From Octopus sinensis (taxonomy: Eukaryota), in NCBI RefSeq assembly GCF_006345805.1, contig NC_043013.1, forward strand, positions 21,204,001-21,268,000: DNA of 64,000 nt, given 5' to 3'. Each line of letters opens with the position of its first letter. Positions within the stretch are counted from its first letter, which is position 1. Position numbers: made by a program. Of the stretch, positions 44,756 to 45,768 are shown in pieces.

Positions 44756-44821
<66 letters not shown>

Positions 44822-45768
44822 CATTATATAATTAGGGCTTAGTAAAATAAATTACTTTGCCACATACTGAGCTTAGTAGAAATAGCAACCAAAAAAAAAT
44901 TTTCTTAGCATTTCTACTACTTAAAGAAAATTTCTCTCAGATAATGTTTACTCCAGACAGCTCACGAAGGTTTGGGGGTAAATACAGAAAAATATCACAA
45001 GTACATAGATCGTTTGAGTACGTCAACGTTTCAAGATTAGCCAAATAAAATCAGCATTTCTTTCGTCAGCTCAAAATTTCTTAATTTGGATTTGGAAACA
45101 CTAAAAAGAAGGAACTTTACCTATCAGCAAACTTGTCGCTTCAGATGAACCACTCCAACTAACAGTGTCAACAGATTCAAAATGCGCAGGCGTAAAATTC
45201 TGCACTCCCCATTCCACCCACGTGGTCTATCTAGCAAACATTTTATTTTAACCGCGAGAACCGAGGCAGTATGACCGAGAGAAATGAATTATAATATCAA
45301 CAATTGAGGGTAAAATTAATTAATTAATCAATTTCACCAAGTGTTCAGTATGTAAAAGGACCATTTATGGCGAATTCAAAATATTACATTATATAATTAG
45401 GGCTTAGTAAAATAAATTACTTTGCCACATACTGAACTTAGTAGAAATAGCAGCCAAAAAAAAGTTTTCTTAGCATTTCTACTACTTAAAGAAAATTTCT
45501 CTCAGATAATGTTTACTCCAGACAGCTCACGAAGGTTTGGGGGTAAATACAGAAAAATATCACAAGTACATAGATCGTTTGAGTACGTCAACTTTTTTTT
45601 GGCTGCTATTTCTACTAAGTTCAGTATGTGGCAAAGTAATTTATTTTACTAAGCCCTAATTATATAATGTAATATTTTGAATTCGCCATAAATGGTCCTT
45701 TTACATACTGAACACTTGGTGAAATTGATTAATTAATTAATTTTACCCTCAATTGTTGATATATATAT

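What the first reader, a model, noticed from the sequence alone, without database searches (positions are those of the whole stretch)
44821..45762. 565-nt retrozyme-like unit whose genomic copy looks reverse-transcribed from a circular or multimeric RNA
Seen: 44821-45592 is about 1.37 head-to-tail units of a 565-nt sequence with no meaningful ORF. It crosses the hammerhead cleavage site twice: at 45019 with the full ribozyme, and at 45584, where the copy stops only 9 nt past the site. It then switches, through an AAC microhomology, into a 173-bp inverted copy (45590-45762 of 45294-45466). The element sits cleanly in (TA)n. The two direct copies differ at only about 3 positions, and the inverted piece carries the second copy's alleles. 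Inference: a young non-autonomous retrozyme family. Self-cleavage would release a 565-nt monomer that can circularise, and the more-than-unit-length, permuted insertion with a 5' inversion is what rolling reverse transcription plus a template switch would leave. I cannot tell from the sequence whether this family has already been described.
Basis: partly seen in the sequence, partly recalled or inferred. Interest (0 to 1): 0.85.

Follow-up and report, generated by a model that had tools for sequence, protein, structure and literature searches.

The report
Hammerhead-bearing retroelement insertion in a TA repeat
A short non-coding mobile element carrying a self-cutting RNA motif was copied into a TA microsatellite as one and a third head-to-tail units plus a flipped piece, the known signature of Penelope-like retrotransposition, so it is a tidy example of a known kind, not a new one.

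Summary
The sequence observation holds. 44821-45592 is 1.37 units of a 565-nt non-coding sequence (3 differences in 207 nt). 45590-45762 is a perfect inverted copy of 45294-45466, joined through AAC. Both flanks are (TA)n. The hammerhead lies on the minus strand. It has every core nucleotide and three helices, and cleaves between 45019 and 45018. No Rfam hammerhead model finds it, and it has A-U where G10.1-C11.1 is usual.

My generic descriptor finds it once in the window and never in 100 shuffles. The hammerhead-bearing strand folds far better than shuffles (z -5.3 to -6.5), and the other strand does not. An 18-nt motif unique to the two flanks suggests a long, imperfect target duplication.

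The architecture is the published hallmark of Penelope-like element (PLE) insertions. Partial tandem, inverted 5' piece, (TA)n target and hammerhead in the repeat are all described. Animal "non-LTR retrozymes" are already proposed as PLE derivatives copied from longer-than-unit RNA.

Best reading: a daughter insertion of such an element, probably in a cephalopod. This locus holds only one complete ribozyme, so it cannot itself release a unit-length monomer.

Not shown: copy number, RNA circles, or whether the template was a circle or a linear multimer. Three clustered differences lean mildly against a single monomeric circle. New member of a known kind.

The parts
44719..44820 (.). Left flank: (AT)n microsatellite, the target. 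It contains the 18-nt interruption motif TGTATATGGGTATATATA at 44746-44763.
   Evidence: TRF row 44719-44820, period 2. The motif occurs only twice in the window, once in each flank, in direct orientation, and in 0 of 100 shuffles.
44821..45385 (-). Complete 565-nt unit (copy 1). The ribozyme-sense RNA is the minus strand. The left end is ambiguous by up to 5 nt (44816-44820 ATATA versus unit ATATT).
   Evidence: Period 565. No ORF over 65 aa. GC 34%. Junction letters.
45013..45075 (-). Type I hammerhead motif.
- Helix I: UUUGAG 45075-45070 with CUCAAA 45018-45013.
- Core CUGACGA: 45069-45063.
- Helix II, 30 nt, 45062-45033: 4 bp, a 3x3 internal loop, 5 bp, a hexaloop.
- GAAA: 45032-45029.
- Helix III: ACG/CGU with loop UUGA, 45029-45020.
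- Cleavage: after A 45019.
   Evidence: Read. Only descriptor hit in the window, with 0 of 100 shuffles giving a hit. This secondary structure scores -9.9 kcal/mol against an MFE of -11.6 for the 78-nt segment. No Rfam hammerhead hit.
45386..45592 (-). Partial second unit (207 nt), head-to-tail with copy 1. It is the upstream, pLTR-like partial copy in ribozyme sense. It carries only the 3' stub of the hammerhead (45578-45592) and a second cleavage-site sequence at 45584/45583.
   Evidence: 3 differences in 207 nt..
45590..45592 (.). AAC microhomology at the switch from the direct copy to the inverted arm. It pairs with GTT at 45464-45466.
45590..45762 (+). Inverted 173-nt arm, the reverse complement of 45294-45466. 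It reads as ribozyme-sense on the plus strand, so its 3' end points outward. It spans the unit-to-unit junction (45385/45386 equivalent). Its outer end lies in the unit's TATAATAT patch.
   Evidence: I1, 100% complementary. Junction letters.
45763..45838 (.). Right flank: (AT)n microsatellite with the second copy of the 18-nt motif at 45813-45830, followed by (GA)n.
   Evidence: TRF row 45759-45838..

Best explanation
This is one daughter insertion of a small non-coding retroelement whose minus-strand RNA carries a type I hammerhead ribozyme. In the literature's terms it is an animal 'non-LTR retrozyme', a non-autonomous derivative or passenger of Penelope-like elements (PLEs).

**Shown**
- The anatomy of the insertion.
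- The ribozyme motif.
- The strand-specific RNA structure.
- The (TA)n target.
- The microhomologies at the junctions.

**Inferred mechanism**
1. A PLE-type endonuclease nicks a (TA)n tract.
2. The freed TA 3' end anneals to an AU-rich patch of an RNA longer than one unit.
3. Reverse transcriptase copies 772 nt, passing two uncut or religated hammerhead sites.
4. At 45592, inside helix III of the ribozyme, the growing cDNA switches template through AAC/GTT. One route is snap-back onto itself 123 nt behind. The other is joining to a second cDNA primed from the other side of the break (twin priming). Either gives the 173-nt inverted piece.
5. The outer end is sealed to the TA tract through ATAT microhomology, with a long, now imperfect target duplication.

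Snap-back explains best why the arm equals copy 2 at every base and why it has no shared 3' terminus with the direct copy.

The template was either a linear multimeric transcript of a tandem master locus or a circle. I lean to a heterogeneous multimer or more than one template molecule.

The locus has only one whole ribozyme. It is probably a dead-end copy, not a source of circles.
For: **Anatomy:**

**Hammerhead**
- All core nucleotides and three helices are present.
- It is the only descriptor hit in the window, against 0 of 100 shuffles with any hit.
- It uses 1 of the 34 CTGANGA heptamers in the window.

**RNA-level selection on the ribozyme strand**
- Circular MFE is -148.2 versus shuffles at -113.7 +/- 5.3 (z -6.5). 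The antisense strand gives z -1.9 (100 shuffles each).
- The linear fold gives z -5.26 (0 of 100 shuffles as good) versus -1.31 (11 of 100).
- G-U pairs number 28 of 181 in sense and 6 of 154 in antisense.

**Insertion rather than in-situ repeat**
- The 18-nt motif occurs only in the two flanks, in direct orientation.
- Both outer breakpoints lie within 1 nt of one of only 7 ATAT/TATA 4-mers in the unit. That covers 34 of 565 positions (6.0%), which squares to 0.0036.

**Match to the published PLE hallmark**
- Partial tandem, adjacent inverted 5'-truncated copy, (TA)n preference, hammerhead in the pLTR, and target duplications that are hard to delimit in microsatellites (PMC8557442 passages).

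**Published retrozyme model and link to PLEs**
- PMC7229834 passages.
- PMC7761336 passages.
- Preprint 10.64898/2026.07.22.740005: abstract and Results.

**Host has PLEs**
- A LINE fragment in the window is 67% identical to an Octopus bimaculoides protein.
- Octopus vulgaris is reported to have PLE families (PMC13282606 passages).
Against: - No Rfam hammerhead family matches, at gathering score or at E <= 10, even on a 111-nt stretch.
- The 10.1-11.1 pair is A-U, where G-C is called highly conserved (PMC4209133 passage). Helix II is long and interrupted. Cleavage activity is therefore unproven.
- My descriptor and the 'within 1 nt' breakpoint criterion were set after seeing the locus. Under the strict 'touching' criterion (4.6% of positions) the left junction does not qualify.
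- There is a single locus only. No second copy is in the window, and there is no way here to show a family.
- No RT or GIY-YIG ORF is in the window, so the helper is inferred.
- The inverted piece does not end at the same unit position as the direct copy (92 nt apart), unlike a PLE with a fixed 3' end.
- The TA-tract lengths around the flank motif differ (63 versus 16 nt after it; at most 27 versus 50 nt before it). A simple target duplication therefore needs later slippage.
- The host call rests on one protein hit. The 'near'-length search found none.
Confidence: 0.65

Rival explanations
1. A 565-nt monomer was cut out by the hammerhead and ligated into a circle. A reverse transcriptase then ran round that single circle 1.37 times (rolling reverse transcription) before switching template.
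For: - The cDNA passes the cleavage site twice without any extra or missing base at the first crossing, where the ribozyme is intact.
- The sense RNA is highly self-paired, as described for retrozyme circles (PMC7761336 passage).
- This is the published model for how multimeric copies arise (PMC7229834 and PMC7761336 passages).
- Both priming and joining points lie in AU-rich patches, not at a fixed 3' end. That suits a template without ends.
Against: - One circle gives identical copies at birth. Copy 1 differs from copy 2 and from the arm at 3 sites, all within 29 nt, while the other compared bases show no difference. Under uniform later mutation this has P about 0.005.
- The changes run in both directions (sense C/U, U/C, U/C), so one editing process does not explain them.
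- Gene conversion, or conversion within the hairpin, could still rescue the model.
- No RNA data were available.
Confidence: 0.25
2. The structure was made at the DNA level. A unit already sitting in a fragile (TA)n tract was partly duplicated in tandem. After a break, a fold-back or replication template switch at AAC/GTT added the inverted piece. No longer-than-unit RNA template was involved.
For: - Long (TA)n tracts flank the locus.
- A separate large palindrome lies about 140 bp away, at 45902-46976. Inverted duplication may therefore be a local habit.
- 3-4 nt microhomologies fit replication-based switching as well as reverse transcription.
Against: - Both outer ends fall at rare TA patches of the unit.
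- The flank motif is duplicated in direct orientation. Both features are expected for an insertion event.
- The combination matches a described retroelement signature.
- A tandem duplication whose period equals exactly one ribozyme-to-ribozyme unit would be a coincidence.
Confidence: 0.08
3. It is not a separate non-autonomous family. It is a remnant of a coding Penelope-like element: terminal (pLTR) sequence from an internally deleted copy.
For: - Retrozyme consensus sequences in Xenopus match PLE termini (preprint Results).
- Hammerheads sit in PLE pLTRs (PMC4209133 and PMC8557442 passages).
Against: - The head-to-tail period is 565 nt, so the template unit itself was 565 nt and had no ORF.
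- No RT or GIY-YIG remnant lies in or near it.
- This rival differs from the best explanation mostly in name, because retrozymes are proposed to derive from pLTRs.
Confidence: 0.07
4. It is an assembly artefact: a chimeric or mis-collapsed read structure in a low-complexity region.
For: PLE-type tandem/inverted structures and TA tracts are said to trouble assemblies (PMC8557442 passage).
Against: - The inverted piece is short (173 nt) and returns to the TA tract and then to unique sequence.
- The junctions are clean microhomologies.
- Nothing else suggests a join. Reads were not available.
Confidence: 0.03

Closest known systems
Animal non-LTR retrozymes (Cervera & de la Pena 2020, PMC7229834; review PMC7761336; preprint 10.64898/2026.07.22.740005)
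   Same: - Non-coding.
- Low GC (34%).
- Head-to-tail units, each meant to carry a type I hammerhead.
- Highly self-paired sense RNA.
- Helix I of 6 bp, a basal helix II of 4 bp, and a short helix III with a 4-nt loop that is self-complementary with G-U. This is the 'canonical metazoan' layout quoted.
- Longer-than-unit genomic copies.
   Different: - Only 1.37 units, with one whole ribozyme.
- A 565-nt unit lies above the 170-400 nt of the 2020 paper but inside the 51-972 bp of the preprint.
- A-U at 10.1-11.1.
- Helix II extended to 30 nt.
- Not found by Rfam.
- RNA circles and copy number were not tested.
- The passages I read give no junction-level description (target, inverted piece) for retrozymes.
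Penelope-like elements that target (TA)n (Neptune, Naiad, Hydra clades; Craig et al. 2021, PMC8557442)
   Same: - Partial tandem forming a pLTR-like repeat.
- Inverted truncated copy next to the 5' end.
- Insertion into (TA)n.
- A target duplication that is hard to delimit.
- A hammerhead in the repeat. This holds for the clades that have hammerheads; Naiads lack canonical ones.
   Different: - No RT or GIY-YIG ORF.
- A unit of 565 nt instead of 3-4 kb.
- The inverted piece and the direct copy end at different unit positions.
- No 30-40 bp 'tail' recognised.
5' inversions of LINE-1 by twin priming, and snap-back cDNA synthesis (recalled from general knowledge, not from a call)
   Same: - A flipped 5' segment.
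- 3' ends pointing outward.
- A junction at a few bases of microhomology.
   Different: - Here the flipped segment duplicates sequence that is also present in the direct copy.
- It spans a unit junction. That needs a repetitive or circular template, or copying of the cDNA itself.
Plant LTR retrozymes (PMC4918200, seen as a search listing; described in PMC7761336 passages)
   Same: Non-autonomous, hammerhead-bearing, thought to move through circular RNA.
   Different: The plant elements have type III hammerheads in true LTRs, a tRNA primer site and polypurine tract, 4-bp target duplications, and high GC. None of these is seen here. No tRNA-like sequence was found.

Membership tests
Hammerhead ribozyme, type I | Conserved core: C3 U4 G5 A6 N7 G8 A9, G12 A13 A14, A15.1-U16.1, and H17 at the cleavage site | tested here: met
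   CUGACGA ... GAAA ... U-A|C, read on the minus strand at 45069-45018. Found by the descriptor.
Hammerhead ribozyme, type I | Three helices round the core, with helix I open and helices II and III closed | tested here: met
   Helix I is 6 bp. Helix II is 4 + 5 bp. Helix III is 3 bp including 15.1-16.1. Helices I and II also appear in the unconstrained MFE of the 78-nt segment.
Hammerhead ribozyme, type I | G10.1-C11.1 base pair (called highly conserved; PMC4209133 passage) | tested here: not met
   A-U at that position.
Hammerhead ribozyme, type I | Match to a curated Rfam hammerhead covariance model | tested here: not met
   No hammerhead family matched at gathering score or at E <= 10 on 1801 nt and on 111 nt.
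Hammerhead ribozyme, type I | Self-cleavage at the predicted site | not testable with these tools
   Needs in vitro transcription of monomer and dimer constructs.
Animal non-LTR retrozyme | Tandem head-to-tail units, each with a type I hammerhead ('active' in the preprint means a hammerhead in all repeats) | tested here: inconclusive
   Head-to-tail, yes. Only one whole hammerhead plus a 15-nt stub, so this copy fails the preprint's 'active' definition.
Animal non-LTR retrozyme | No protein-coding capacity, and low GC (<45%) | tested here: met
   Longest ORF is 65 aa, with no Pfam match. GC is 34%.
Animal non-LTR retrozyme | Sense RNA predicted to be stable and highly self-paired | tested here: met
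   z -6.5 (circular) and -5.26 (linear) for sense, versus -1.9 and -1.31 for antisense. 64% of bases are paired.
Animal non-LTR retrozyme | Multicopy family in the genome, expressed as linear and circular RNA | not testable with these tools
   No other copy in the 64-kb window. No animal genome or transcriptome collection was on hand. A scan of prokaryote genomes found 0.
Penelope-like element insertion signature | Partial tandem (pLTR) plus an adjacent inverted 5'-truncated copy at the 5' end | tested here: met
   207-nt partial unit upstream of the full unit, with a 173-nt inverted piece upstream of that in ribozyme sense. Caveat: the outer end of the inverted piece is 92 nt away from the unit position where the direct copy ends.
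Penelope-like element insertion signature | Insertion into a (TA)n microsatellite | tested here: met
Penelope-like element (autonomous) | ORF with reverse transcriptase and GIY-YIG endonuclease | tested here: not met
   253 stop-free ORFs of 60 aa or more were scanned, out of 320 in the window. The 67 left out had low-complexity composition. No RVT or GIY-YIG match appeared. The element is therefore at most non-autonomous.
Penelope-like element (derivative) | Sequence similarity of the unit to the pLTR of an autonomous PLE of the same genome | not testable with these tools
   No genome, Repbase or Dfam access.

The most novel reading that the evidence does not exclude
The locus may be a junction-level fossil of target-primed reverse transcription of a hammerhead-processed circular (or concatemeric) RNA by Penelope-like machinery. 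It would show priming by TA microhomology on an end-less template, read-through of religated ribozyme sites, a stall inside the ribozyme's helix III, and a snap-back. That would be direct structural evidence for which enzyme set moves animal retrozymes, and how. The review I read says the repeats themselves do not reveal this (PMC7761336 passage). It would also add a cephalopod family with a hammerhead variant that current covariance models miss.
Probability: 0.25. Interest if true: 0.6.

Novelty: new member of a known kind. Interest (0 to 1): 0.4.

Why it matters
If the unit proves to be a multicopy family, it would extend hammerhead retrozymes to a cephalopod-like genome. It would also carry a ribozyme variant that Rfam models miss, which implies under-counting in genome surveys.

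More usefully, insertions like this one preserve all three junctions. A genome-wide set of them could test whether retrozymes are integrated by Penelope-like elements at (TA)n. It could also test whether the templates are circles or concatemers.

As a single locus it is a clean illustration of published ideas, not a discovery.

Tried and rejected
- **Rfam.** The whole window at gathering score gave 0 matches. The locus at E <= 10 gave only sub-threshold miRNA-like and snoRNA-like hits, caused by the hairpin and the TA tracts. Examples are MIR447 at 42 bits against a gathering score of 200. I rejected these as artefacts of the inverted repeat.
- **Minimal (helix III-less) hammerhead descriptor.** 0 hits in the window and 0 in 100 shuffles.
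- **Other copies through spurious protein predictions.**
  - The 65-aa ORF shared no words with any protein.
  - The 53-aa minus-strand ORF gave 9 hits, all long proteins and most matched in many short stretches. I take these as leucine-rich compositional matches, not as copies of the element, and did not follow them.
- **Scan of prokaryote genome contigs with a 32-nt stretch of the ribozyme region.** 0 matches.
- **Six-frame Pfam scan of long stretches.** I sent stop-free ORFs instead.
- **Pfam results for the window.** Only sub-threshold matches: zf-RVT at 23008-23220 and Pif1_2B at 8683-8973.
- **tRNA-like head (SINE idea).** None found.
- **Similarity among the eight segments lying between neighbouring TA tracts.** None found.
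- **Host identification.** The 'near'-length search with the LINE fragment found nothing.
- **Supplements.** Closed for PMC7229834. Not readable for PMC4209133. Species lists there could already name cephalopod retrozymes or PLE hammerheads.
- **Editing as the cause of the three differences.** Rejected, because the changes run in both directions.
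Full report
**1. The observation**

- A direct repeat with spacing 565 links 44816-45031 to 45381-45596 at 98%.
- Base by base, 44821-45027 and 45386-45592 (207 nt) differ at three positions: 44871 G/A, 44888 A/G and 44899 A/G. 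Similarity stops at 45028/45593.
- 44821-45592 is therefore 772 nt, or 1.37 units.
- An inverted repeat of 173 nt, 100% complementary, links 45294-45466 to 45590-45762.
- The same arm is only 95% complementary to copy 1. It therefore carries copy 2's alleles.
- AAC at 45590-45592 belongs both to the end of the direct copy and to the start of the arm.
- Both flanks are (AT)n tracts, at 44719-44820 and 45759-45838.
- Nothing in the unit is coding. The longest stop-to-stop ORF is 65 aa, or 78 aa across the junction. Neither matches Pfam.
- No other copy of the unit lies in the 64-kb window.

**2. The ribozyme**

The hammerhead is on the minus strand. Its parts are:

| Part | Sequence | Coordinates |
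|---|---|---|
| Helix I | UUUGAG with CUCAAA | 45075-45070 and 45018-45013 |
| Core | CUGACGA | 45069-45063 |
| Helix II | 30 nt: 4 bp, a 3x3 internal loop, 5 bp, a hexaloop | 45062-45033 |
| Core | GAAA | 45032-45029 |
| Helix III | ACG-UUGA-CGU | 45029-20 |
| Cleavage | after GUA | between 45019 and 45018 |

All invariant core positions are present.

The layout is helix I of 6 bp, a basal helix II of 4 bp, and a short helix III with a 4-nt loop. This matches the 'canonical metazoan type I' description quoted from PMC4209133 (passage). The ten bases ACGUUGACGU are self-complementary if two G-U pairs are allowed. That would permit the dimeric helix III discussed in that paper. This point is my reading of the letters, not a test.

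Against membership:
- Rfam finds no hammerhead at gathering score.
- It finds none at E <= 10 on 1801 nt or on 111 nt.
- The 10.1-11.1 pair is A-U rather than the highly conserved G-C.

For it:
- A generic descriptor found exactly one site in both strands of the window. The descriptor asks for the core, helix I >= 5 bp, helix II >= 3 bp and helix III >= 2 bp.
- The descriptor found no site in any of 100 dinucleotide shuffles. I wrote it after seeing the candidate.
- The window has 34 CTGANGA heptamers, and only this one completes the motif.
- The hammerhead secondary structure scores -9.9 kcal/mol, against -11.6 for the unconstrained MFE of the 78-nt segment.

**3. RNA structure picks out the ribozyme strand**

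I cut the unit at the cleavage site (45583 down to 45019) and folded it.

| Fold | Sense (minus strand) | Antisense |
|---|---|---|
| Circular (100 shuffles each) | MFE -148.2; shuffles -113.7 +/- 5.3; z -6.5; 64% paired | z -1.9 |
| Linear, folding tool | z -5.26; 0 of 100 shuffles as good | z -1.31; 11 of 100 as good |
| G-U pairs in the MFE | 28 of 181 | 6 of 154 |

DNA palindromes would help both strands equally. The asymmetry therefore points to selection on the minus-strand RNA, as described for retrozyme RNAs (PMC7761336 passage).

**4. Signs of an insertion event**

- The 18-nt motif TGTATATGGGTATATATA occurs only twice in the window, at 44746 and 45813. There is one copy in each flank, in the same orientation, and none in 100 shuffles. 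The window holds 46 pure (TA)>=6 runs.
- This looks like a long target-site duplication.
- The TA stretches around the motif differ in length: 63 versus 16 nt after it, and at most 27 versus 50 nt before it. The duplication cannot be delimited without assuming later slippage.
- PMC8557442 states that target duplications are often indiscernible in microsatellite targets, and that PLE target duplications vary in length (passages).
- Both outer breakpoints of the insertion sit within 1 nt of an ATAT/TATA 4-mer of the unit. Only seven such 4-mers exist in 565 nt. That covers 34 of 565 breakpoint positions (6.0%), which squares to 0.0036.
- Under the stricter 'touching' rule (4.6%) the left junction misses by one mismatched base.
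- All three junctions thus show 3-4 nt of microhomology.

**5. How it most likely arose**

In ribozyme sense (minus strand) the layout runs 5' to 3' as follows:
1. The inverted 173-nt piece.
2. A 207-nt partial unit.
3. A full 565-nt unit.

Both 3' ends point outward into the TA tract.

PMC8557442 describes this layout for Penelope-like elements. [quoted passage not shown] They also mention hammerheads in pLTRs and a (TA)n preference in Naiad, Hydra and, by hypothesis, Neptune clades.

The retrozyme literature already proposes two relevant points:
- Animal retrozymes are moved by PLEs.
- CDNAs longer than one unit arise from their RNA (PMC7229834; PMC7761336).

A 2026 preprint reports that Xenopus retrozyme consensuses are sister to PLE pLTRs and range from 51 to 972 bp.

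My best reading is therefore PLE-type target-primed reverse transcription at a nicked TA tract. It started on an AU-rich patch of an RNA longer than one unit and ran 772 nt through two ribozyme sites. A template switch then occurred at AAC/GTT inside helix III.

Two forms of the switch fit the letters:
- **Snap-back.** The cDNA folds onto itself 123 nt behind and copies 170 nt of its own sequence.
- **Twin priming.** A second cDNA is primed from the other side of the break and joined.

Snap-back explains more. The arm is identical to copy 2 at 173 of 173 bases. The arm runs through the unit-to-unit junction. Its outer end (unit position 290, counted from the cleavage site) differs from that of the direct copy (198). 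These mechanistic steps are inference.

**6. Circle or concatemer**

The DNA cannot tell a circle from a linear multimer, or from jumps between monomers.

- One monomeric circle would give identical copies at birth.
- The three differences all lie on copy 1 and within 29 nt. The remaining compared bases show none.
- With substitutions falling uniformly on the 679 compared bases, all three on one lineage within 29 nt has P about 0.005. All three on copy 1 has P about 0.028.
- In sense the changes are C/U, U/C and U/C, so a single deamination or editing process does not fit.
- Copy 2's alleles give the more stable fold, -148.2 versus -142.7.

I read this as mild evidence for a heterogeneous template: a tandem master array or more than one RNA. 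Later conversion is the other option. It is not proof against circles.

**7. What this locus can and cannot do**

Only one complete ribozyme is present. The second crossing keeps just GUUGACGUA|CUCAAA, without the catalytic core.

A transcript of this locus could be cut once in cis. It cannot release a unit-length 565-nt monomer. By the preprint's definition it is not an 'active' retrozyme.

Those are untested.

A minus- or plus-strand transcript would also contain a perfect 173-bp hairpin. That hairpin explains the sub-threshold miRNA-like Rfam hits.

**8. Surroundings and host**

- The window is mostly non-coding and very rich in microsatellites (63 TRF rows).
- 253 stop-free ORFs of 60 aa or more were scanned, out of 320. 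The 67 left out were of low-complexity composition.
- Pfam gave only sub-threshold matches. There is no reverse transcriptase or GIY-YIG domain, so no helper element lies nearby.
- A LINE-like ORF at 62304-62735 (minus) is 67% identical over 83% of its length to a protein that UniRef assigns to Octopus bimaculoides. That was 1 hit among 826 candidates in the 'longer' search. The 'near' search found none.
- The host is thus probably a cephalopod, on thin evidence.
- PLE families are reported in Octopus vulgaris (PMC13282606 passages).
- 235 Rfam Hammerhead_1 hits are reported in the giant squid genome (PMC6962438 passage).

**9. Novelty**

My searches found no paper that treats retrozymes in cephalopods.
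- One search used 'octopus', 'hammerhead ribozyme', 'Penelope' and 'retrozyme'. 104 papers held at least two terms, and I saw 20 of them.
- One search used 'hammerhead' plus 'cephalopod'. 129 papers matched, mostly about sharks, and I saw 15.
- Only PMC8557442 combined the themes.

This is weak evidence of absence. Most listed papers were not opened. Repbase and Dfam were not available.

The kind of element, its proposed helper, the insertion architecture and the longer-than-unit cDNA model are all in print.

What may be new:
- A cephalopod family.
- A 565-nt unit.
- A hammerhead variant that covariance models miss.
- For retrozymes specifically, a locus where target, priming patch, read-through and inversion junction are all preserved.

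**10. What stayed unchecked**

- Copy number.
- RNA circles.
- Cleavage activity.
- The helper element.
- Read support for the assembly.
- The collections metagenome contigs and viral contigs, which were closed.
- Any animal genome collection, since none was offered.

**11. Verdict**

This is a new member of a known kind, with interest 0.4.

Noticed in passing
window 45902-46976: A second, much larger near-perfect palindrome lies about 140 bp to the right of the insertion. Its arms are about 530 nt (46088-46431/46448-46791 at 99%, 46006-46086/46791-46871 at 98%, 45902-46017/46861-46976 at 93%) with a 16-nt spacer. Its outer ends abut TA-rich sequence, and the right end runs into (TA)n at 46968-47007. 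It has no similarity to the 565-nt unit and no hammerhead by either descriptor. It could be a head-to-head insertion of another element or a foldback element.
   Followed up: partly
window 44746-44763 and 45813-45830: The 18-nt motif TGTATATGGGTATATATA interrupts the TA tract once on each side of the insertion and occurs nowhere else in the window. It is possibly a long target-site duplication blurred by microsatellite slippage.
   Followed up: partly
window 62304-62735 (minus): A LINE-like ORF fragment (the region between endonuclease and RT) is 67% identical to a protein assigned to Octopus bimaculoides. It is the only clue to the host.
   Followed up: partly
window 45414-45642: The 173-bp perfect hairpin gives sub-threshold matches to plant miRNA precursor models: MIR447 at 42 bits against a gathering score of 200, and MIR169_2 and MIR319. 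These are artefacts of the inverted repeat. They are also a reminder that a transcript here would form long dsRNA.
   Followed up: no
whole window: Microsatellite density is extreme: 63 TRF rows (TA, ATT, TC, ATAG, TG and others) and 46 pure (TA)>=6 runs. The eight 100-1500 nt segments lying between neighbouring TA tracts share no similarity with one another.
   Followed up: yes
window 23008-23220 (+) and 8683-8973 (+): Sub-threshold Pfam matches to zf-RVT (E 7.9e-5, 23.7 bits, cut-off 27.5) and to the Pif1 2B domain (E 5e-4, 20.2 bits, cut-off 23.9). They are probably decayed retroelement and Helitron remnants.
   Followed up: no
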